Part shown: positions 15,580 through 56,022 of the stretch, piece after piece | Numbering within the stretch: the first letter of the stretch is position 1 | How the letters are laid out: each line of letters begins with the position of its first letter | DNA from: a virus | DNA: 64,000 bases | Virus record (IMG/VR): IMGVR_UViG_3300021964_007119 | Span: 1-64,000 of that record | Reading direction: 5' to 3' (one strand) | Notes under the pieces: generated by a model | What the model was told of the DNA's origin: nothing | What the model saw: the letters and a program-made list of their open reading frames with translations, nothing else | The model's database searches: none | Position numbers and translations under genes: made by a program

Positions 15580-15651
15580 AATTTTCAAATAACTAATTAC
15601 ACTTATATATATAAGTCAAATCGCCCAAAATACATTTTTTCTTGCATTTTT

Positions 15652-46676: not shown

Positions 46677-46678
46677 AG

Positions 46679-46752
46679 TGGGAGCACAAGGACTCGAACC
46701 TTGAACCAAGAGCTTAAAAGGCTCCTGCTCTACCAAATTGAGCTATACTCCC
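46679..46752 (-). tRNA. tRNA-Lys(UUU)
   Basis: GGGAGTA/TGCTCCC acceptor, anticodon loop CT-TTT-AA, GGTTCGAGTCC; no encoded CCA. Confidence 0.95.
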
Positions 46753-46764
46753 GTATACAACATT

Positions 46765-46801
46765 AATATACAAAATTAATTGTCGTATGTCAAGAGTTTT
46801 T
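46765..46801 (-). promoter_or_regulatory. Sigma70-type promoter of tRNA-Lys
   Basis: TTGACA-N17-TATATT. Confidence 0.8.
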
Positions 46802-48603
46802 TATAATATTTGTTTATTATTAAGTTCTTGATACTTTTTATTTCTTGTTTCGCGAACAACATTATCATCTTTATGTATAACCTTCATATATTCAGAAAGT
46901 CTTAAAACTCCCATTCTTAAATTATGGTGTTGACTCATAGCTCTACAATTCGTATCAAAGTCAAATACATCACCAAGACCTTCTTCTTGAAAAGCTTTAT
47001 TTCTTTCTTCATCAGTCATACGACTTAATTCCATATCTGAAATTATATGTCCACCAACTGGTGTTGATAGTAATTTGTTTCCGTCAATATCGTAGTGGTT
47101 GTTATCTTCCAAAGAATCTAATATGACTTCTCTACTAAATGTTCTATTTAATCCTGTTGGATTTGGAACTATACCTATTGTTTTTAAATACTCATCTTTG
47201 TAAAGACCTTTTAGAAACTCTTTCTTAATTTCATTGTAAACTAGTTTCATTTGACCTTGACCACTATTACGAGTATTTAATCCAAACTTTGTTAAAGACC
47301 CCTCATTATCAACGGCTCTATTTCTATAAAACTCATTGAAACAACTCACAAAAGTTACTGGGTCATTAATAGTAAATTGTGTATCTTCAATATCTCTATT
47401 CATTAATAACAATTGTAAAAGATATTGTCTTTTAGGAAAAGGTTCTGACTCCTTAGTAGTTCTTAATGAAGAAATCATATCATATAAAAAATCTAATTGG
47501 GTTTCAATTTCATCAAAGAAATTTATATCATCAGATTTATTATCAAATGCATTTCTATTGTTGTATTGTTCGATTAATTTAAAATCACTAAGGTCTACGG
47601 CTTTTTTATTAGAGTCAACAAAACAACCCACCATAGTTGAAACAGCTAAAGATTGTAATTTAACTCTTTCTTTTTCTGACATCAACTCATATAGTGGATG
47701 ATAGTTTGATTCCATAGCTCGAAACTCAACATACTTTGGTGATGACATTCTTAATATCTTCTTCATAAAATTACTTGTTTCTGCATGAAACATTTGTAAA
47801 TCAGATTTTGGTGAATGAACATTGACTTCTTTAAAGTAGTTCTTTGTTTCTTCTGGACTATAAAATGGAAGTATTGTAAAATTAAATTTATTACCATACC
47901 AGTAATCATTTAATACTTCATCTTTTGTTATTGAAACTCCTTTTGATTCGGCTTCTTTTATGATGTCTTCTAAATACATTCTGTTAACTTTGAATCCTCT
48001 AACGGATTCTTTATTTTGTTCGTCCCATTCTTCTGGTAATTGTTCATTATAATACCAAAGATTTTGTTTAGCATCAACTTGAACTAAACCTAGTGGAAAA
48101 CCAATTAGTCCCCATAGACGATGTTCAACATCACAAGGTTCTAACACAACTTTACCATTGTTGTATCTTGTCATATTAAATGTTCCAGAACTAATCCATT
48201 GAGAATCACTTTTTATTCTTTTATTGTCTTTGTTATACCTGATTGTCCAACCCCAATGTCTTCCAGCGTGTTCACAAGCACTTCTATGGTTTGGTGCTGT
48301 ATAAACCTTTGGGTCTTGACCGGTTTCTGGTTGAGAAAATAATTCTCCATTTATATATTTGTCAACTAATGGTTTTGGTGAACTTGAAAACTGGTATGAA
48401 CCATATGATTCGTGTGGTTTTAAATTCTTCACATCAACATCAAATATCAATCCAATATTTTTTATAATTTGTTCTGTATTAAATGATTGTTTTAAAGATG
48501 GATAATTTTTAAGATATTTTCCATATTCATCTTCTGTTAACCAGTCTGGTGCTGATTGTTTGATTAGTTTGTTGAGTATCTCTCTCTTTTCTTTTTTAGT
48601 CAT
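46801..48603 (-). CDS. Divergent GmrSD-like (DUF262 + HNH-like) protein
   Basis: CDVEHRL resembles DGQQRL; YFKEVN; C-terminal GGHIIS...NCRAM...HNLRMG. Confidence 0.5.
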   Translation of the reverse strand: MTKKEKREILNKLIKQSAPDWLTEDEYGKYLKNYPSLKQSFNTEQIIKNIGLIFDVDVKNLKPHESYGSYQFSSSPKPLVDKYINGELFSQPETGQDPKVYTAPNHRSACEHAGRHWGWTIRYNKDNKRIKSDSQWISSGTFNMTRYNNGKVVLEPCDVEHRLWGLIGFPLGLVQVDAKQNLWYYNEQLPEEWDEQNKESVRGFKVNRMYLEDIIKEAESKGVSITKDEVLNDYWYGNKFNFTILPFYSPEETKNYFKEVNVHSPKSDLQMFHAETSNFMKKILRMSSPKYVEFRAMESNYHPLYELMSEKERVKLQSLAVSTMVGCFVDSNKKAVDLSDFKLIEQYNNRNAFDNKSDDINFFDEIETQLDFLYDMISSLRTTKESEPFPKRQYLLQLLLMNRDIEDTQFTINDPVTFVSCFNEFYRNRAVDNEGSLTKFGLNTRNSGQGQMKLVYNEIKKEFLKGLYKDEYLKTIGIVPNPTGLNRTFSREVILDSLEDNNHYDIDGNKLLSTPVGGHIISDMELSRMTDEERNKAFQEEGLGDVFDFDTNCRAMSQHHNLRMGVLRLSEYMKVIHKDDNVVRETRNKKYQELNNKQIL

Positions 48604-48745
48604 TATAGACTCCTATGTTTATGAGGTTCTACCTCTTTTATAAATGTTACTTTTAATGGTGAACATTACTAACCATATATCAATAAGTATATGTTAATAC
48701 GCCTAAACAATCAAGCTATTTTAATCATATAAAACTTACAATTAT

Positions 48746-48785
48746 AATATAATACTTTTTTTGTTGTTTGTCAAGAACTATTTTT
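48746..48785 (-). promoter_or_regulatory. Sigma70-type promoter (class I)
   Basis: TTGACA-N17-TATATT. Confidence 0.75.
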
Positions 48786-48939
48786 CTCTAATACGGTTTA
48801 TGTATTTCTTTATCAGTCGTTCTCTAAACGAAACTTTATCTTGTGAATGACCTGGATTCTGTTTAGTCCTAGTCAGTCTTTTTTGTAGTTGGTGAATCTT
48901 TCTAAATAATTTTGACTTGTATTCAAACTTCTTACTCAT
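48778..48939 (-). CDS. Small basic protein (53 aa)
   Basis: AGGAG RBS; MSKKFEYKSKLFRKIHQL... Confidence 0.55.
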   Translation of the reverse strand: MSKKFEYKSKLFRKIHQLQKRLTRTKQNPGHSQDKVSFRERLIKKYINRIREK

Positions 48940-48970
48940 TGCATTCTCCTATCTAAATTGTGATTTTATT

Positions 48971-49351
48971 TCAATATTCGTTTTTGTTTAATTTCTTTTT
49001 ATGGATTCTATACTTCCACAAGTTTTTTGGATTAAATGGAACATCTGGTATTTTGTCTACTTCTGCTTTCAATTTCAATATACTTGGTATCTGTACTACA
49101 TAAGTATCATCAATAACATTGAACCTACAAAGTTTATTTGTTTTATCACAAATACCCACTAAATCACCTTCTTTGGTTTCTATCAAATGTTTTCTATCAC
49201 TTGGTAACCCATACATATTTACATACTCTCCGCCTTCACTTGGAACTGAATGAAATATGCTTGGTTTAGGTGAACCATTATACTCAGACACATATGTCAA
49301 ACACAATAGTTCATCTTCTGGTGTTTTGGTTGTTTGGTTATACCTTTTCAC
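48971..49351 (-). CDS. Hypothetical protein
   Basis: Coupled ORF. Confidence 0.6.
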   Translation of the reverse strand: MKRYNQTTKTPEDELLCLTYVSEYNGSPKPSIFHSVPSEGGEYVNMYGLPSDRKHLIETKEGDLVGICDKTNKLCRFNVIDDTYVVQIPSILKLKAEVDKIPDVPFNPKNLWKYRIHKKKLNKNEY

Positions 49352-49806
49352 TATCTACGAAATGCATTTGGTTCATCATATTCGACTAATCCACTAAATT
49401 CTGATGATGAACGAATTTTCTTTCCAAGACCTTGTTGAAAATCAATTCCTAATTCACCACATACTTTTACTTCTGGTGAATTTGAAGCATCTCTATCACC
49501 ACCATTACAAAATATTAGTTTGTCCATAGGTTTAAATCTGTGAATCATCTTAATAGTTTCACATACTGACTTATCTTCATCAATTGATATGATAGCTTCA
49601 TCAACCATATCTAAATGATATACGATTTCTAATCTATCGTGTTCTATCATAAATTCATCACCTTTCTTTAACAAACATTGTTCACGATTATTTACAATAA
49701 CCACCAACTCATCTGCTAATTCTTTAGCTAATTTAAAGTATTCTAAGTGTCCTATGTGTAGTGGGTCAAAGTATCCACTAACTATTGCTGTTTTTTTTCT
49801 TTTCAT
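49351..49806 (-). CDS. HIGH-motif cytidylyl/adenylyltransferase
   Basis: SGYFDPLHIGH, NGGDR, RSSS. Confidence 0.9.
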   Translation of the reverse strand: MKRKKTAIVSGYFDPLHIGHLEYFKLAKELADELVVIVNNREQCLLKKGDEFMIEHDRLEIVYHLDMVDEAIISIDEDKSVCETIKMIHRFKPMDKLIFCNGGDRDASNSPEVKVCGELGIDFQQGLGKKIRSSSEFSGLVEYDEPNAFRR

Positions 49807-49808
49807 TA

Positions 49809-50717
49809 TTACTCCTTTATAATAAGTATTTCGTGAGAATCCTTTTGATTACTGATTCCCATCTGTTTTCTGTTTTTTCCTATTCTCGTTTCACCCGTTC
49901 CCATAGAATAATTCCATTTAGGAAATACTTGGTGAAAATCTTTATACCATTCTCTAATGGTTTCACAATTATTATATGATAGAACAAATGAACCTTCGTG
50001 GTCATATAACATATCTCTCAACTTCTCGTGGTCAAATCCGTCGTGATGAACGGGTATATTCCTCATTGGATAAATACCATTGAACATCTTGTTGTCTTTG
50101 TCTTGTTCCAAATAATAAGGTGGGTCTAAATATAATAAATCTTTTTTGTGATTAGGTATCACATCTCTATAATCTGCTTGTTGAACTGACAAATTGGGGC
50201 ACAAAAAGTTATTGATGTTTTTGCACATTTGTTTCCACTTATCTGCTTGTAAATATACTGAACTACCCCAACCGAGATAACCCGGCCCATAAGAAGTATT
50301 GTGGTTAAAGTAATAAAGAGAAGCTCTTTCTAAATCAGATAACGATATCACATTGTCTCGTTTGTAAGAATCTGTTTTCCAATCTGCTAGCATATCTTGT
50401 GTTTTATCTAATGACATAAGAATTTCTTTTACTTCTTTATAAGTCTTATCATCAGGGGTAATCTTGGAAAGTTCCTTTGACAACTCTTGTGGTTGTGATA
50501 AAAGAACTTCCCAAAAATTAACCAACATATCGAACACATCATATCCAATAACTTCAATATCCAATTCATTAGCCCAACGAACCTCTAACGAACCACCACC
50601 AATAAATGGCGATATAATTCGTTTAGGTTTAGGCCAAAATGGAATGTAAGTTGAGATAAATCCATACGCTCTGGACTTACCACCTGCATATCTTAATGGT
50701 GTTCGACTATGTTTCAT
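49809..50717 (-). CDS. D12-class (Dam-like) N6-adenine DNA methyltransferase
   Basis: PLRYAGGKS, SPFIGGGS, YLDPPY, LSYN. Confidence 0.92.
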   Translation of the reverse strand: MKHSRTPLRYAGGKSRAYGFISTYIPFWPKPKRIISPFIGGGSLEVRWANELDIEVIGYDVFDMLVNFWEVLLSQPQELSKELSKITPDDKTYKEVKEILMSLDKTQDMLADWKTDSYKRDNVISLSDLERASLYYFNHNTSYGPGYLGWGSSVYLQADKWKQMCKNINNFLCPNLSVQQADYRDVIPNHKKDLLYLDPPYYLEQDKDNKMFNGIYPMRNIPVHHDGFDHEKLRDMLYDHEGSFVLSYNNCETIREWYKDFHQVFPKWNYSMGTGETRIGKNRKQMGISNQKDSHEILIIKE

Positions 50718-50899
50718 TATTTATTTTCTTCAACTGAAGCTTTACGATACTCAGTAACTAACTTTTTTACTTCACCAATCGCTTTACGAGCTCTCGTTCC
50801 AGCGGCTTTGTTTCCAGTATTTAAGTTAGTTTGATGATTCGTTGAAAAGTCTGTAAACAAATCATTCAGTTGTGAATATAACTCATCTAATTTACTCAT
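50717..50899 (-). CDS. Histone H1-like protein (Hc1 family)
   Basis: GNKAAGTRARK...YRKASV. Confidence 0.85.
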   Translation of the reverse strand: MSKLDELYSQLNDLFTDFSTNHQTNLNTGNKAAGTRARKAIGEVKKLVTEYRKASVEENK

Positions 50900-50944
50900 T
50901 GTAATCTCCTTAAGGTTTGAGTTTTAGTTTTTCCTTTTCTTATG

Positions 50945-51016
50945 AGGCGTGTGTAGGAATCGAACCTACGAACAATGGTTTTGCAAACCACGACATTGCC
51001 ATTCTGTCAACACGCC
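50945..51016 (-). tRNA. tRNA-Cys(GCA)
   Basis: GGCGTGT/ACACGCC, loop TT-GCA-AA, U73. Confidence 0.93.
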
Positions 51017-51020
51017 GTTG

Positions 51021-51105
51021 TGGTAAGTGATGGATTTGAACCACCGTATCTCATACGAGAGTCAGATTTACAGTCTGATGCTTTTAACCGCTCAGCCAAC
51101 TTACC
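51021..51105 (-). tRNA. tRNA-Tyr(GUA)
   Basis: Loop CT-GTA-AA, long variable arm. Confidence 0.95.
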
Positions 51106-51106
51106 G

Positions 51107-51180
51107 AGCTTCCAGTAGGATTTGAACCCACGACATTCTCATTACAAATGAGATGCTCTACCAAACTGAGCTATGGAAGC
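51107..51180 (-). tRNA. tRNA-Thr(UGU)
   Basis: GCTTCCA/TGGAAGC, loop TT-TGT-AA. Confidence 0.95.
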
Positions 51181-51185
51181 GTTTG

Positions 51186-51257
51186 TACTCCGACGGGTAG
51201 TCGAAACCCGATTTTATGGATGAAAACCATATGTCCTAACCATTAGACGACCGGAGC
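51186..51257 (-). tRNA. tRNA-Glu(UUC)
   Basis: GCTCCGG/TCGGAGT, loop TT-TTC-AT; T-stem closes U-A instead of G-C. Confidence 0.9.
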
Positions 51258-51480
51258 ATTACTTATAGAAGCTTTGTTATGTCCTTGAAGAATAGCATTT
51301 AAGTCTTGTTCTGACAAGGTGTGGAATTATTTAATCGGTTTTCCAATCATTTCCGAACTACCTATAAGTGTTTAATTTAAAGGTTAATTTTTCTCAGACC
51401 TCTGTTTATAACCAGTCCAATACAAAAACCTAATAATACTAATAATATTTCTTGCATGTTTATCTCCTTTTATATGTTTG

Positions 51481-51553
51481 TGGAGCTGACAGGAATCGAA
51501 CCCGCGACCTACGCAGTGCAAGTGCGTCGCTCTTCCAACTGAGCTACAGCCCC
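51481..51553 (-). tRNA. tRNA-Ala(UGC)
   Basis: GGGGCTG/CAGCTCC with G3.U70, loop CT-TGC-AC. Confidence 0.96.
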
Positions 51554-53086: not shown

Positions 53087-53419
53087 TTACGCGTCTATTT
53101 CTCTCTGGTCTTCTAAAGGTCTTTCATCTATTTCTTGTTTCCAATCTAAGATTTCCCAAGAAAAGGCCTTTCTATTTCTTTGAAACTCAGTCATAGACCA
53201 ATTAATGTTATCAGTTGTTAATGTCACGACCTCTGTATTGTGATTCTCATAATACATAATTTCAATCAGATAACTTTTTCTCTGTGATATTCTACTATTC
53301 ATATTCTTTCCTTTATTCTTTATTAATACTATTCCTAAATCATTCATCTTGATATAACCCACGCCATACCAATTATAATTAGTATGTTCATAAACATTTC
53401 CATTAATAATTTCTCCCAT
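53087..53419 (-). CDS. Hypothetical protein
   Basis: ORF track; may be two fused mini-genes. Confidence 0.5.
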   Translation of the reverse strand: MGEIINGNVYEHTNYNWYGVGYIKMNDLGIVLIKNKGKNMNSRISQRKSYLIEIMYYENHNTEVVTLTTDNINWSMTEFQRNRKAFSWEILDWKQEIDERPLEDQREIDA

Positions 53420-53785
53420 ACTTATCGGCGTTTCTCATTGCCCATAAAGTAAACACTATTAAACCTAATCCATATATTGTATATCCTAATATCTCCATTA
53501 TCCTATCCTCGTTAAAATATAAAATTGTAAGAACAACACCATCAGTGCAATGATTGTTCTGATAAACTCCATTAAATGATTATGTCTATCGAAGAACCTT
53601 TCAATTCTATACCATATACTATCTCTGTAATCCATACTATTACCTATTCCTTCCCTTGACACCTTGTGTCAAAAAACCTATGTGTTAAAAATACTCCCGA
53701 GTTTTGCACGACCTCGAGATAAAAATCAGTCAGAGCCTCCTCTATAAATCTTGCGACTTTGCAATCACGGTTAAATGCTCCCTAT

Positions 53786-53826
53786 AATATACGACATCTA
53801 TTTCTCAATGTCAAGAGCTTTTTTTA
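53786..53826 (-). promoter_or_regulatory. Sigma70-type promoter (class I)
   Basis: AAAAAAGCTC-TTGACA-N17-TATATT. Confidence 0.85.
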
Positions 53827-54015
53827 TTATCCTATTCCTATTTGAAATCCTAATTCTTCTGCGTTTTCTTTAAACTCCCATATACCTTGAACTAAGCCCT
53901 CTACTTCTTTATCGGACTTTTCCCAGAATTTGGGGTCGTGAAAGTCTTTTTGTATATCTTTCATTACTTGTTTCATCATATGTTGTAATTCTTTATCGTC
54001 TATATTACTTCTCAT
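53827..54015 (-). CDS. Hypothetical protein
   Basis: ORF following a long hairpin leader. Confidence 0.55.
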   Translation of the reverse strand: MRSNIDDKELQHMMKQVMKDIQKDFHDPKFWEKSDKEVEGLVQGIWEFKENAEELGFQIGIG

Positions 54016-54171
54016 AGTAGGAGCTTCTTTACCTTTATACTTACCCGTGATATACCAAGCCTCGTGGATTTACGATATTAACACCACGAGAACTTGACGA
54101 ACCTATTTGTTTATAATGTTTTCTTAGAACATTTATGTAAATCACTTATCCTTTTGTTAATAAAATTTTTG

Positions 54172-54368
54172 AGGGTGTTGTAGGATTCGAACCTACACGC
54201 TCCAATACTAACTCGTTACTTAGGTGAATATCACTATGGGTTCTCACACCCTACTTATCTAGATTCAGTATCACCGACCTTCGTCTTATTCTCGTCAGTC
54301 CCCTATTGGACTCGCACCGATTTTCATAACTCGTGTTCTTGACGACAAAACCAATCGTCATAACACCC
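54172..54368 (-). ncRNA. 197-nt tRNA-like RNA with oversized central insertion
   Basis: Acceptor GGGTGTT/AACACCC, D-like stem GACGA/TCGTC with GG loop, T arm GTAGG-TTCGAAT-CCTAC; no canonical anticodon arm. Confidence 0.8.
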
Positions 54369-54386
54369 AATTTTCAAATACATCTT

Positions 54387-54427
54387 AACTTACTACAATT
54401 ACCCGTAAAAGTCAAGAGCTTTTTTTA
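54387..54427 (-). promoter_or_regulatory. Sigma70-type promoter of tRNA-like RNA
   Basis: AAAAAGCTC-TTGACT-N17-TAAGTT. Confidence 0.75.
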
Positions 54428-54429
54428 AA

Positions 54430-54873
54430 TTATTTCGGATAGATAGCAAAGGTATCAGCATACTCAGCCAGACAATGCCCTTGAGCTCTCTCGTATCCGT
54501 ATTGTTCTTTACTACAACCTCTATACTTAATTCTATAATTCCCCGTTTTCATCATATTCCTAATCGTAGGATTATACCTAACTCTCATAGGAATACCTTT
54601 GTACAACGCTTGTTCAAAATAACCAGCTTCATATTGTTCCAACCTAATTGCTGGTTGATTCTGATTTAATCTATACAACTCCATAGGATTATGAGCATAT
54701 CTATAACTCGTTATCTCGTGAGTTCCGTTCTCAACATACTCTCCTTTATCATTATAATAACCATAAAAATTTTGAATATATCGTGTACATAGTGTATCTT
54801 CATAATTCCTCATAGGAATACCAAAAGTATCAGTTTGAATTTCCATATTTTCCTCGTTGTTTTGTTCTATCAT
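54430..54873 (-). CDS. Hypothetical protein (leaderless)
   Basis: ATG 5 nt after -10 box of TTGACT-N17-TAATAT promoter (54879-54907). Confidence 0.7.
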   Translation of the reverse strand: MIEQNNEENMEIQTDTFGIPMRNYEDTLCTRYIQNFYGYYNDKGEYVENGTHEITSYRYAHNPMELYRLNQNQPAIRLEQYEAGYFEQALYKGIPMRVRYNPTIRNMMKTGNYRIKYRGCSKEQYGYERAQGHCLAEYADTFAIYPK

Positions 54874-55021
54874 ACTCTATATTACGAATACCCGAACTAA
54901 AAGTCAAGAGCTTTTTCACATATTTCTCAGCTTTTTCCCCCAAAATCCCCTATGCCCCACACAGGCCGCAGTCTGTCATTTTGTCATACATCAGATTTTT
55001 TTACTTTTTTTCAAAAAGCAC

Positions 55022-55050
55022 TTGACAATAACGGCCATTTTTAGTAAATT
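55022..55050 (+). promoter_or_regulatory. Plus-strand sigma70-type promoter facing DnaA boxes
   Basis: TTGACA-N17-TAAATT with A-tract upstream. Confidence 0.65.
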
Positions 55051-55126
55051 ATAAGTTAAGCTGTATTATGTATCTGCAAGATTAGGATTGTCGCTCTAAT
55101 ATCTAGTAGCTCTTTCTTTTTGTATA

Positions 55127-55146
55127 TGTGGATAAGCTGTGGATAA
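55127..55146. promoter_or_regulatory. Two tandem consensus DnaA boxes (candidate origin)
   Basis: TGTGGATAA-gc-TGTGGATAA in a ~590-bp non-coding gap. Confidence 0.6.
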
Positions 55147-55464
55147 GTGTATGTCATTGTGTCATATCAGGGAAAAAAATCGCAGGGCTCAACACGAACA
55201 TATTATATTTCTTGTTATGATATTAAGAACTTGGTGGTCTGGTTGGGAAATTATGTGTGAAAAGTGGGTTGAATTCCCTTACTTTCCCTATTTTGATAAA
55301 AATGATATGTAGATTGGTGATGCACCAAATGAGTTTATAGGATTAAATATAATGATAGATTACTTTTTATTTGATATATGACAACCTTTTTTTATAAAAG
55401 TGTCTTAAAGGGGTATTCCCGTTCCAAATTTACCTATACCCGTTGATGAAATTTTGTTTGTGAG

Positions 55465-55629
55465 TTATTTCTTGATGTCGAACCAAATCGTTTCGTCGTC
55501 TTGATTTTTTGGTTCTTTTTTCTTGGTAGGTTTATCACTCCAGATGAGTAATAAAATTCCGATAATGAGTAGGATATGCAAGAATATTCCTATCCATTGA
55601 TAGTCTGATATGTGATTTAAAAAATCCAT
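55465..55629 (-). CDS. Small membrane protein (54 aa)
   Basis: MDFLNHISDYQWIGIFLHILLIIGILLLIW...; ATAGTTAT motif upstream. Confidence 0.55.
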   Translation of the reverse strand: MDFLNHISDYQWIGIFLHILLIIGILLLIWSDKPTKKKEPKNQDDETIWFDIKK

Positions 55630-55800: not shown

Positions 55801-56022
55801 CTATCGTTTCAACAACCATAGTTTTTTCTCCTGAAAATGTTTGATGTGTTTACAAGGTTTCCCTCGTCTAAATTTGTATCCTGGACAAGTACAAGTCCAC
55901 TCCAATACTCTTGGATTAAAAGTTATATCGTAGTCTTTATCTTTGATTTTTAGGTGTTGAGTTCCGTCGTCTTCTACCCATACTCCACCTATTAAATCAA
56001 TGAGATAATTATAATTGTTCAT
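55801..56022 (-). CDS. SWIM zinc-finger protein
   Basis: WTCTCPGY....PCKHI. Confidence 0.8.
   Translation of the reverse strand: MNNYNYLIDLIGGVWVEDDGTQHLKIKDKDYDITFNPRVLEWTCTCPGYKFRRGKPCKHIKHFQEKKLWLLKR

What the first reader, a model, noticed from the sequence alone, without database searches (positions are those of the whole stretch)
54172..54368. tRNA chassis carrying a ~140-nt structured insert instead of anticodon and variable arms
Seen: perfect 7-bp acceptor, 5-bp D-like stem with GG, canonical T arm, and own promoter. The insert has UCCAAUA/UAUUGGA enclosing GGGU/ACCC and GUGA/UCAC hairpins, plus a repeated ACGAGUUA. It has G3-C70 and is about half tmRNA length; the insert is shorter than typical group I introns. 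Inference: a new tRNA mimic keeping the elbow for RNase P, EF-Tu or ribosome recognition while displaying another domain (compare YrlA Y RNAs).
Basis: partly seen in the sequence, partly recalled or inferred. Interest (0 to 1): 0.85.

Follow-up and report, generated by a model that had tools for sequence, protein, structure and literature searches.

The report
Phage tRNA-like RNA carrying a conserved insert
An uncultured estuarine and marine phage carries a conserved gene for a 197-base RNA that keeps the outer shape of a tRNA but has a new folded domain where the anticodon arm should be, so it looks like a natural version of the tRNA scaffold that engineers use to make foreign RNAs stable.

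Summary
On the minus strand, 54368 to 54172, lie a 7-bp acceptor stem, a 6-bp D-like hairpin with a GG loop, a canonical T arm, discriminator U and an own sigma-70-type promoter. ARAGORN at default settings and Rfam give no real match.

A metagenome scan found 24 homologues, all in syntenic relatives of this phage. The RNA is better conserved than the flanking ORFs: 91.9% against 83 to 87%. Positions 62-95 and 40-60 never vary. Six base pairs in five helices change on both sides and stay paired.

The two ACGAGUUA copies are the two strands of one 8-bp helix. GGUGA/UCACC replaces the GUGA/UCAC hairpin. UCCAAUA/UAUUGGA can only form as a pseudoknot and is untested.

The chassis resembles the phage's own tRNA-Cys. 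RNA-library contigs from four runs cover the gene without a splice joint.

Best reading: a tRNA-scaffolded stable non-coding RNA whose working part is the insert, target unknown. The closest precedent is T4 species 1 RNA (rnaC), with no sequence homology. I class it as a new RNA family within a known kind.

The parts
54410..54415 (-). -35 hexamer TTGACT, inside the recurrent word GCTCTTGACTTT at 54408-54419
   Evidence: Invariant in all 21 homologues whose sequence reaches this far.
54387..54392 (-). -10 hexamer TAAGTT, 17 nt after the -35
   Evidence: It is TATATT in nine of the homologues, while the spacer between the hexamers varies freely.
54369..54380 (-). 5' leader UAUUUGAAAAUU, ending in U at -1 just before G1. 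Inferred to be the RNase P leader.
   Evidence: Invariant in all homologues that reach it; one (L063) has a 9-nt duplication just before it. RNase P cleavage is an inference.
54172..54368 (-). The whole 197-nt tRNA-like RNA, from G1 to discriminator U197
54362..54368 (-). Acceptor stem, 5' strand (RNA 1-7)
   Evidence: 7 of 7 pairs invariant in 14 of 14 distinct sequences
54173..54179 (-). Acceptor stem, 3' strand (RNA 190-196). Discriminator U is at 54172.
   Evidence: The next base is C, as after all six true tRNAs.
54340..54360 (-). D-like hairpin (RNA 9-29): 6-bp stem 9-14/24-29, loop with invariant GG
   Evidence: Stem invariant. The loop varies at five alignment columns, but GG is fixed.
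54327..54334 (-). Helix H3, 5' strand (RNA 35-42, ACGAGUUA)
   Evidence: Pairs with RNA 151-158. G39-C154 becomes C-G in 6 of 14 distinct sequences. A tandem G.A/A.G becomes G-C/A-U plus a 1-nt bulge.
54211..54218 (-). Helix H3, 3' strand (RNA 151-158, UAACGAGU)
54274..54326 (-). Invariant core (RNA 43-95), including the T-loop-like GGUGCGAGUCC and the purine-rich GACGAGAAUAAGACGAAGG
   Evidence: One variable position in 53 (C61U) across 14 distinct sequences. Positions 66-87 are fixed by how the homologues were found; the other 31 positions are not.
54304..54310 (-). UCCAAUA (RNA 59-65): candidate pseudoknot strand, or part of the local hairpin 57-61/68-72
   Evidence: Undecided.
54201..54207 (-). 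UAUUGGA (RNA 162-168): candidate partner of 59-65. It sits where the 3' strand of a tRNA anticodon stem would be.
   Evidence: Invariant, while 159 and 170-172 vary. 98 of 98 cells are paired but there is no double change.
54223..54275 (-). Three-way junction domain (RNA 94-146). It holds H4 (94-98/142-146), H5 (99-102/114-117), H6 (118-121/128-131) and the invariant linker AUAGUGAUAU (132-141).
   Evidence: One double change in H4, one in H5 and two in H6. RNAalifold predicts the same three helices on its own.
54197..54200 (-). Variable-loop analogue (RNA 169-172). Its last three positions (170-172) are the most variable stretch; G169 does not vary.
   Evidence: Five versions of 170-172 after the fixed G169: CGU, GCC, UGC, GC, CUU.
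54180..54196 (-). T arm (RNA 173-189): GUAGG-UUCGAAU-CCUAC
   Evidence: A175-U187 becomes G-C in 3 of 14. Loop positions 183 and 184 vary; UUCGA is fixed.
54016..54171 (-). Conserved trailer and intergenic stretch up to the 62-aa ORF. No terminator-like site. It holds two hairpins.
   Evidence: 93.0% mean identity. No minus-strand terminator in 53500-55000. One hairpin covaries.

Best explanation
This is a real, selectively maintained gene for a tRNA-scaffolded non-coding RNA, specific to one lineage of uncultured estuarine and marine myoviruses.

A copy of the phage's tRNA-Cys kept the parts that make the tRNA L-shape: acceptor stem, D hairpin with GG, T arm, and discriminator U followed by C. 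The anticodon arm was replaced by a folded domain of about 130 nt. That domain has an 8-bp entry helix, a 53-nt core that is almost invariant, and a three-way junction.

Proposed working, all of it inferred:
- An early-type sigma-70 promoter transcribes the gene, and transcription reads on into the downstream ORFs.
- Host RNase P cuts before G1.
- A 3' tRNA-processing nuclease cuts after U197 or C198, and the CCA-adding enzyme completes the end.
- The chassis therefore gives exact ends and resistance to nucleases, as in engineered tRNA scaffolds.
- The invariant insert is the working part. It most likely binds a host or phage protein or a small ligand, acting as a decoy, sponge or sensor. The target is unknown.
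For: Shown by tool results:
- The chassis elements are present.
- The promoter word recurs in the window and is conserved in homologues, while the spacer varies.
- 24 homologues were found in syntenic relatives at 77 to 100% nucleotide identity.
- Mean identity to the window is 91.9% for the RNA, against 83.1% for the 147-aa gene and 86.8% for the 62-aa ORF.
- 38 of 202 alignment columns vary. 24 of these are in loops or linkers. The 14 in helices are six compensated pairs plus the two columns where the tandem G.A becomes Watson-Crick.
- 96.7% of cells are paired, against 91.9% in shuffles (0 of 500 reach it). Six pairs change on both sides, against 0 to 1 when the partners are slid.
- G.U pairs fit only the minus strand: G121.U128, U102.G114, U61.G.
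- The 3' part of the chassis matches tRNA-Cys at 23 of 26 aligned columns, against 11 to 18 of 25-26 for the other five tRNAs. After the RNA itself, model R1's next hit in the own record is tRNA-Cys at 21.2 bits.
- The base after the discriminator is C, as for all six true tRNAs.
- Contigs from four RNA libraries cover the whole gene with no joint across the insert.

From papers:
- In the engineered tRNA scaffold, acceptor stem, T arm and D arm are kept, the cargo sits in the anticodon stem, and the cell processes and protects the RNA (PMC3753655, passages read).
- RNase P cuts several tRNA-like RNAs that are not tRNAs (PMC11143913, passages read).
- T4 RNAC and RNAD are stable RNAs from the tRNA region with unknown roles (PMC3014915 and PMC9697503, passages read).
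Against: - No direct evidence of a discrete stable RNA. All laid runs were contigs, which cannot show ends, strand or level, and DNA carried into RNA libraries is not excluded.
- Processing by RNase P, a 3' nuclease and the CCA-adding enzyme is inferred only.
- Four of the six double changes sit on the single split between the two sequence groups, so independent events are few, about three to four.
- All homologues are close (86.5% identity or more), and positions 66-87 are fixed by how they were found.
- No terminator follows the gene and the next 156 nt are even more conserved (93%). The element could work in cis, as part of a longer transcript.
- The whole RNA folds only modestly better than shuffles (z = -1.72; 12 of 200 shuffles fold at least as well).
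- No partner or target was found. Antisense matches in the 82-kb record are at chance level: two 12-mers found, about 1.9 expected by my own estimate.
- Position 8 is A, not the usual U.
Confidence: 0.55

Rival explanations
1. A cis-acting tRNA-like leader. The element is the 5' part of the mRNA for the downstream small ORFs (the 62-aa ORF and beyond). Cleavage by RNase P or a 3' tRNA nuclease at the tRNA-like fold sets the mRNA's 5' end, stability or translation. The RNA piece itself is a by-product or a cis sensor.
For: There is no terminator-like site on the minus strand between the RNA and the 62-aa ORF. The 156-nt stretch between them is 93.0% conserved and holds a covarying hairpin. The next promoter word lies only at 53807-53818. 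RNase P is known to process some mRNAs (PMC11143913, passages read).
Against: A cleavage signal needs only an acceptor and T-arm mimic. That does not explain a 53-nt near-invariant core, a covarying three-way junction or a retained D loop with GG. The T4 tRNA, rnaC and rnaD genes are also closely packed, and stable RNAs still come from that region.
Confidence: 0.17
2. A chargeable tRNA mimic. After CCA addition the RNA is aminoacylated (cysteine is the candidate, because of the tRNA-Cys-like acceptor and U73). It then acts through EF-Tu or the ribosome, or as an amino-acid donor or a decoy for toxins that attack charged tRNAs.
For: The acceptor stem and U197 are invariant in 14 of 14 distinct sequences, while the T stem covaries. 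That suggests the acceptor is read by its sequence. The chassis resembles tRNA-Cys. The 3' end has the same N73-C form as the real tRNAs. From recall, not from any call: U73 is a main cysteinyl-tRNA synthetase determinant and acts even in minihelices.
Against: No anticodon GCA is presented anywhere. There is no G3.U70 and no tag reading frame as in tmRNA (ARAGORN in tmRNA mode finds nothing even at a relaxed threshold; Rfam). Position 8 is A. Nothing here tests charging.
Confidence: 0.1
3. An intron-containing tRNA gene. The insert is removed, by itself or by proteins, to give a working tRNA.
For: Group I introns are known in bacterial and phage genes, including bacterial tRNA genes (PMC3984707, search listing and start of abstract only). 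At a relaxed threshold with the intron option, ARAGORN draws a tRNA-Asn(att) with a 106-nt intron.
Against: That ARAGORN model appears at the relaxed thresholds tried (-ps80, -ps90) but not at the default threshold with the intron option, and it has two mismatches in a 5-pair anticodon stem. No group I or other ribozyme family matches at E up to 10. The insert (106 to about 140 nt) is shorter than the smallest group I introns I recall. The tRNA parts are interrupted at two places: 29 nt after the D arm, and about 96 nt in the loop. No joint across the insert appears in contigs of four RNA libraries, although contigs can miss a spliced form.
Confidence: 0.04
4. A decaying tRNA-Cys pseudogene broken by inserted DNA, with no function.
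For: It resembles tRNA-Cys. It lies in a region rich in HNH endonuclease genes and small shuffled cassettes. No homologue was found outside the lineage.
Against: It is conserved above the flanking ORFs, its changes are compensated, its core is invariant and its promoter is kept.
Confidence: 0.03

Closest known systems
Bacteriophage T4 species 1 RNA (rnaC / RNAC)
   Same: Both are phage-encoded, lie beside or near the phage tRNA genes, and have a canonical T hairpin just before a 3' end that pairs with the 5' end. Both have a large structured insert instead of an anticodon arm and no anticodon. Both give only a weak sub-threshold tRNA-Sec match in Rfam: 17.5 bits for rnaC, 16.5 bits here. The role of rnaC is still unknown (PMC3014915 and PMC9697503, passages read).
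   Different: No homology was detected: model R1 does not hit rnaC. rnaC is 139 nt, and its predicted fold shows no D hairpin with GG. rnaC lies directly next to rnaD and tRNA-Arg, whereas this RNA has its own promoter about 2.6 kb from the tRNA cluster.
Engineered tRNA scaffold for recombinant RNA
   Same: The design is the same: acceptor stem, T arm and D arm are kept, and the cargo is inserted in place of the anticodon stem-loop through a helix. The scaffold is recognised, processed and protected by cellular factors, and cargoes up to about 250 nt work (PMC3753655, passages read).
   Different: That is a laboratory construct. Here the arrangement is natural, conserved and carries a cargo of unknown function. 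There are also 5 unpaired nt between the D hairpin and the entry helix, and a possible pseudoknot with the variable-region side.
tmRNA (SsrA)
   Same: A tRNA-like acceptor and T-arm domain joined through a long helix to a large internal domain that may include pseudoknots.
   Different: G3-C70 here instead of G3.U70. No tag reading frame was detected by ARAGORN and no Rfam match. It has a true D hairpin.
Bacterial Y RNA YrlA
   Same: A tRNA-like module fused to another functional module.
   Different: No Rfam match. No Ro (TROVE) gene in the 82-kb partial record. From recall: in YrlA the free ends lie in the Ro-binding stem and the acceptor-like stem is closed, the opposite of this RNA.
The phage's own tRNA-Cys (window 50945-51016, minus strand)
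   Same: The T arm matches at 16 of 17 positions. Both have discriminator U followed by C. The acceptor strands differ by one indel, and the D stem is similar (GAC-/-GUC).
   Different: There is no anticodon arm. A 130-nt domain stands in its place. The interior shows no significant similarity to any of the six tRNAs.

Membership tests
Canonical tRNA (Rfam RF00005 / ARAGORN) | 7-bp acceptor stem with discriminator, and a 5-bp T stem with a UUCGAAU-type loop | tested here: met
   Conserved or covarying in 14 distinct sequences.
Canonical tRNA (Rfam RF00005 / ARAGORN) | D arm with G18 G19 | tested here: met
   GG is invariant. The stem has 6 bp rather than 4, and position 8 is A.
Canonical tRNA (Rfam RF00005 / ARAGORN) | 5-bp anticodon stem with a 7-nt loop at the standard distance, and a score above the family threshold | tested here: not met
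   No ARAGORN call at default settings. No RF00005 match even at E up to 10. The relaxed model has mismatches in its anticodon stem.
tmRNA | G3.U70 alanine identity pair | tested here: not met
   G3-C70 in 14 of 14 distinct sequences
tmRNA | Tag reading frame with resume codon; detection by ARAGORN in tmRNA mode or by Rfam | tested here: not met
   ARAGORN -m at -ps80 finds nothing. No Rfam tmRNA match at E up to 10.
tRNA with group I intron | Group I catalytic core | tested here: not met
   No intron family among 4227 Rfam models at E up to 10
tRNA with group I intron | Joined exons form a standard tRNA; the spliced form is seen in RNA | tested here: inconclusive
   No good exon join. No joint across the insert in contigs of four RNA libraries, but contigs can miss a spliced form.
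YrlA / bacterial Y RNA | Match to the family model | tested here: not met
   No match
YrlA / bacterial Y RNA | Ro (TROVE) protein gene in the same genome | tested here: inconclusive
   No PF05731 match, but the record is about 44% complete
T4 species 1 RNA (rnaC) | Sequence and structure homology to rnaC | tested here: not met
   In the T4 tRNA region, R1 hits only two true tRNAs weakly, not rnaC
T4 species 1 RNA (rnaC) | Architecture: a phage RNA near tRNA genes, with a T hairpin, paired ends and a large insert | tested here: met
   compared
Hammerhead ribozyme (considered because of CUGACGAG...CGAA) | Three helices around a CUGANGA / GAAA / UH core | tested here: not met
   No Rfam hammerhead match at E up to 10. 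Read from the sequence: stem II would be a single G-C pair, position 15.1 would be G, and no partner exists for stem I.

The most novel reading that the evidence does not exclude
The RNA is a working tRNA mimic born recently from a phage tRNA-Cys. It is CCA-tailed and aminoacylated through its invariant acceptor stem and U73. It is then carried by EF-Tu to the ribosome, or to another enzyme that uses aminoacyl-tRNA, where its invariant 130-nt domain acts. That would be a second natural class, besides tmRNA, of large charged tRNA mimics, and this one would be encoded by a virus.
Probability: 0.07. Interest if true: 0.9.

Novelty: new variant of a known kind. Interest (0 to 1): 0.6.

Why it matters
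Phage-encoded stable RNAs that look like tRNAs without an anticodon have been known since T4 species 1 RNA, and their roles are still unknown. This element is a second, unrelated example, and a cleaner one:
- It has a full tRNA elbow.
- Its likely parent, tRNA-Cys, is identifiable in the same genome.
- Its cargo is invariant and supported by covariation.
- The phage occurs in many estuarine and marine samples.

It suggests that phages arrived on their own at the tRNA-scaffold trick for making a foreign RNA domain stable. It also gives a defined cargo of about 130 nt whose binding partner can be sought. If the cargo proves to be a decoy for a host defence or a tRNA-handling enzyme, it would add an RNA-based layer to the known interplay between phage tRNA genes and host tRNA-directed defences.

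Tried and rejected
Homologues beyond the lineage
- Exact 26-mer of T arm plus acceptor, and the 22-mer core, in viral contigs: 0 loci each.
- Gapped core pattern in viral contigs: 2 loci, both in GC-rich sequence with no tRNA-like features.
- The same pattern in genome contigs: 35 loci. None matches model R1; the single 18-bit hit lies elsewhere in its locus.
- blastn and tblastn of the 147-aa protein against isolated phages: no match.
- The three nearest records by baseplate protein are Microcystis phage Mel-JY01 (46.8% aa identity), uncultured LR756508 and a Flavobacterium Immutovirus. Searching them whole with R1 gave only one tRNA-Met and noise.
- The 40 IMG/VR loci that share the 147-aa gene lack the RNA and share nothing else with the window (6 of the 40 compared).
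- The search for related loci with the 600-aa neighbour: none.
- Earlier scan notes, searched by sequence: none.

Ideas dropped
- Hammerhead or another ribozyme.
- Insert flanked by an 8-bp target-site duplication: the 'repeats' pair with each other, and removing the insert gives no tRNA.
- Interior as a second, decayed tRNA copy: local alignment scores are at shuffle level.
- Kinship of the interior with the ~110-nt element beside the 147-aa gene in other phages: scores at shuffle level.
- Antisense targets in the 82-kb record: at chance level.
- Shared 12-nt leader as a motif: 3 matches against 5.1 expected.
- No Pfam, PHROG or PADLOC family for the immediate neighbour ORFs at each library's cut-off (only a SWIM zinc finger in the 73-aa ORF at 55801-56022); the protein atlas gave one hit at 0.76.
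- No CCA-adding enzyme gene in the partial record.

RNA runs
- Stretches without cover (54840-55500 in all four runs) and contig ends near 54170-54173 are not evidence of transcript ends.
- Habitat labels of runs that I did not lay are not used as evidence.

Limits
Supplements of PMC10690425 (10,006 candidate viral RNAs) could list this motif; I could not check.
- That this RNA is not in print rests on Rfam and searches only.
Full report
WHAT IS THERE

Read on the minus strand from 54368 to 54172, the window gives a 197-nt RNA (RNA position = 54369 minus window position).
- Positions 1-7 (GGGUGUU) pair perfectly with 190-196 (AACACCC).
- After A8 comes a hairpin with a 6-bp stem (9-14/24-29) and a loop that holds GG.
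- Positions 173-189 form a textbook T arm, GUAGG-UUCGAAU-CCUAC.
- U197 is the discriminator. The next base is C and then an A-rich trailer. All six true tRNAs of the window show the same 'N73, C, then no CCA' form.
- Upstream lie TTGACT (54415-54410), 17 nt, TAAGTT (54392-54387), and a leader of about 12 nt ending in UU.
- The extended -35 word GCTCTTGACTTT recurs 15 times in the window with up to 2 mismatches, against 6.3 expected; 0 of 100 shuffles reach 15. Nine of the 15 are on the minus strand, which carries most ORFs. I read it as the phage's sigma-70-type promoter class.

NOT A KNOWN FAMILY

- ARAGORN at default settings and Rfam at gathering thresholds report only the six tRNAs.
- A permissive Rfam scan of 53900-54700 at E up to 10 gives only tRNA-Sec at 16.5 bits and a snoRNA at 13.1 bits.
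- ARAGORN with introns allowed finds nothing at its default threshold. At the relaxed thresholds tried (-ps80, -ps90) it draws a tRNA-Asn(att) with a 106-nt intron and two mismatches in the anticodon stem. Its tmRNA mode finds nothing.

GENOMIC SETTING

- The window is part of an 82-kb IMG/VR virus record, estimated 44% complete.
- It has myovirus-type baseplate genes.
- Its nearest isolates by baseplate wedge protein are Microcystis phage Mel-JY01 (46.8% aa identity, 190 kb) and Flavobacterium Immutovirus phages (37.8%).

HOMOLOGUES

Scans of IMG/VR found nothing. A scan of metagenome contigs with RNA positions 66-87 returned 24 loci. All are syntenic relatives of this phage, 77 to 100% identical over their flanks, and each carries the full RNA; one (L060) is cut at its 5' end.

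There are 15 distinct sequences in two main groups. Mean identity to the window:

| Region | Mean identity | Loci compared |
|---|---|---|
| The RNA | 91.9% | 23 |
| 147-aa gene upstream | 83.1% | 13 |
| 62-aa ORF downstream | 86.8% | 23 |

In the structure-guided alignment A4 (window plus 22 loci, 14 distinct rows; L053, identical to the window, and the truncated L060 were left out), 38 of 202 columns vary.
- 24 lie in loops or linkers: D loop, the loops of H5 and H6, the variable-loop analogue, T-loop positions 59 and 60, and single positions 61, 148 and 159.
- 14 lie in helices.
- Positions 24-38, 40-60, 62-95 and 132-143 never vary. Only 66-87 are fixed by how the loci were found.

STRUCTURE FROM COVARIATION

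I built model R1 on seven nested helices, aligned the homologues to it and counted pairs.
- 96.7% of 546 cells are standard pairs, against 91.9% in shuffles; 0 of 500 shuffles reach the observed value.
- Six pairs change on both sides and stay paired. When the partners are slid by 1 to 3 columns, 0 or 1 pairs do.

The double changes are:

| Helix | Pair | Change |
|---|---|---|
| H3 | G39-C154 | to C-G |
| H4 | U96-A144 | to A-U |
| H5 | U102-A114 | to C-G (also U.G once, and one G.A exception) |
| H6 | G119-C130 | to A-U |
| H6 | U121-A128 | to G.U |
| T stem | A175-U187 | to G-C |

In H3, the tandem G37.A156 / A38.G155 of group 1 becomes G-C and A-U with a one-base bulge in group 2. The helix then has eight Watson-Crick pairs; duplex energy goes from -4.7 to -7.3 kcal/mol.

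Four of the six double changes fall on the single split between the two groups. Independent events are therefore about three or four. This is a real limit of the evidence.

RNAalifold run on the same alignment recovers the acceptor, D, T, H4, H5 and H6 helices by itself, but not H3. G.U pairs fit only the minus strand. The same G119A plus C130U double change also appears together in one RNA-library contig.

- The two copies of ACGAGUUA are the two strands of H3 (35-42 with 151-158), offset by two bases.
- The GUGA/UCAC hairpin loses a pair in 6 of 14 distinct sequences. These are the same six where H4 compensates.
- UCCAAUA (59-65) and UAUUGGA (162-168) cross H3, so they can form only as a pseudoknot. 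All 98 cells are paired, but the only change is C61U, which gives U.G. A competing local hairpin, 57-61/68-72, fits that change equally well.
- In favour of the pseudoknot, by inference: UAUUGGA lies exactly where the 3' strand of an anticodon stem would be, just before a hypervariable variable-loop analogue of 3 to 4 nt, and it is invariant while its neighbours vary.

ORIGIN

- The T arm plus acceptor 3' strand plus discriminator matches the phage's tRNA-Cys at 23 of 26 aligned columns. The other five tRNAs match at 11 to 18 of 25-26.
- The 5' part also fits tRNA-Cys best: 20 of 31, against 14 to 16 of 29-30.
- In the whole 82-kb record, model R1 hits the RNA itself (256.5 bits), then tRNA-Cys (21.2 bits, E 1.8e-4), then two other tRNAs.
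- The interior shows no significant likeness to any tRNA.
- I infer that the chassis descends from a tRNA-Cys copy. R1 finds no homologue in the three nearest complete relatives, so the element looks young and specific to this lineage.

SPLICING AND EXPRESSION

Contigs of four RNA libraries from four studies cover the gene. One 515-nt contig spans 54033-54547 and one 250-nt contig spans 54173-54422. No joint across the insert is reported.

Contigs cannot show ends, strand or level, they can miss a rare spliced form, and DNA may be present in RNA libraries. This result is therefore compatible with an unspliced RNA but does not prove one.

No terminator-like site follows the gene on the minus strand. 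The next 156 nt are 93.0% conserved. Transcription therefore probably runs on into the small ORFs, and the RNA would have to be cut out, as tRNAs are.

HOW IT MOST LIKELY WORKS (INFERENCE)

The conserved parts are those that RNase P, 3' tRNA nucleases and the CCA-adding enzyme read on a tRNA: the stacked acceptor and T helices, and the D-loop/T-loop elbow.

The engineered 'tRNA scaffold' keeps exactly these parts and puts a cargo in place of the anticodon stem-loop. The cell then processes the chimera precisely and does not degrade it, for cargoes up to about 250 nt (PMC3753655, passages read). RNase P is known to cut several tRNA-like RNAs that are not tRNAs (PMC11143913, passages read).

I therefore read the element as a natural tRNA-scaffolded RNA whose near-invariant 53-nt core and three-way junction are the working part. 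The acceptor stem is invariant while the T stem covaries, which hints that the acceptor is read by its sequence. This keeps a charging model alive at low odds. No target was found: antisense matches in the record are at chance level, and the neighbouring small ORFs have no family apart from a SWIM zinc finger in the 73-aa ORF at 55801-56022.

COMPARISON WITH WHAT IS KNOWN

The closest precedent is T4 species 1 RNA (rnaC, 139 nt).
- It lies beside the T4 tRNA genes.
- It folds with a canonical T hairpin, paired ends and two long internal hairpins.
- It gives the same weak tRNA-Sec signal in Rfam.
- Its role is still unknown (PMC3014915 and PMC9697503, passages read).
- It is not homologous to the present RNA.

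tmRNA membership fails on G3.U70 and on the tag frame. YrlA fails on the model match and, from recall, on topology. Canonical tRNA fails on the anticodon arm. [quoted passage not shown] None of them is matched here in Rfam.

VERDICT

This is a real, conserved, structured RNA gene, and a new RNA family. The kind, a phage tRNA-like stable RNA with a replaced anticodon arm, has a 50-year-old precedent whose function is also unknown. Its internal fold and its functional guesses do not yet.

Noticed in passing
window 54430-54873 (-); L002-L041: The 147-aa ORF just upstream has no Pfam, PHROG or PADLOC family. It occurs at 66-79% aa identity in 40 IMG/VR contigs; the 6 of them that I compared with the window share nothing else with it. 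It behaves as a roving gene.
   Followed up: partly
L002-L041, just after the 147-aa homologue; window about 54058-54088 (-); L046, L054, L056: In the other phages the roving gene is followed by GGTGTTAATATCGTAA right at its stop, by a conserved ~110-nt element plus terminator, or by both. In the window the 16-mer sits in a hairpin after the tRNA-like RNA. In three relatives of the window phage that hairpin is replaced by part of the ~110-nt element. The promoter plus RNA therefore looks inserted between the gene and its usual 3' element.
   Followed up: partly
window 54016-54171 (-), hairpin about 54105-54130: The intergenic stretch after the RNA is 93.0% conserved, more than the ORFs around it. 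One hairpin (AAUGUU / AACAUU) changes to AAGGC / GUCUU and ACGAC / GUUCGU, while its loop CUAAKAA stays the same.
   Followed up: partly
window 54295-54327 (-), RNA 42-74: A 10-codon ORF (AUG at RNA 42-44, reads MKIGASPIGD, then stop) lies inside the RNA. It varies only at C61U (seen in L058 and the cut L060), which falls in a codon's second position; every third codon position is fixed. That points to constraint on the RNA rather than on a peptide.
   Followed up: no
window 46678-51553 (-): All six true tRNA genes end with the discriminator, then C, then a base other than C. The first C of CCA is encoded but the rest is not.
   Followed up: no
window 15580-15591 (-) and 54369-54380 (-): The 12-mer TATTTGAAAATT stands directly before the first GG of both this RNA and the 411-nt RNA candidate noted earlier. 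There are only 3 matches in the window against 5.1 expected (with up to one mismatch), so the count is not enriched, but the placement is curious.
   Followed up: partly
RNA 10-14, 73-77, 84-88 (window 54355-54359, 54292-54296, 54281-54285, minus strand): GACGA occurs three times. Each copy could pair with UCGUC (RNA 24-28), the 3' strand of the D stem, which raises the possibility of alternative folds. All copies are invariant, so this cannot be tested here.
   Followed up: no
P0049 (homologue of window 53087-53419): A homologue of the 110-aa ORF lies on a 180,669-bp ENA contig, probably a near-complete relative of this phage.
   Followed up: no
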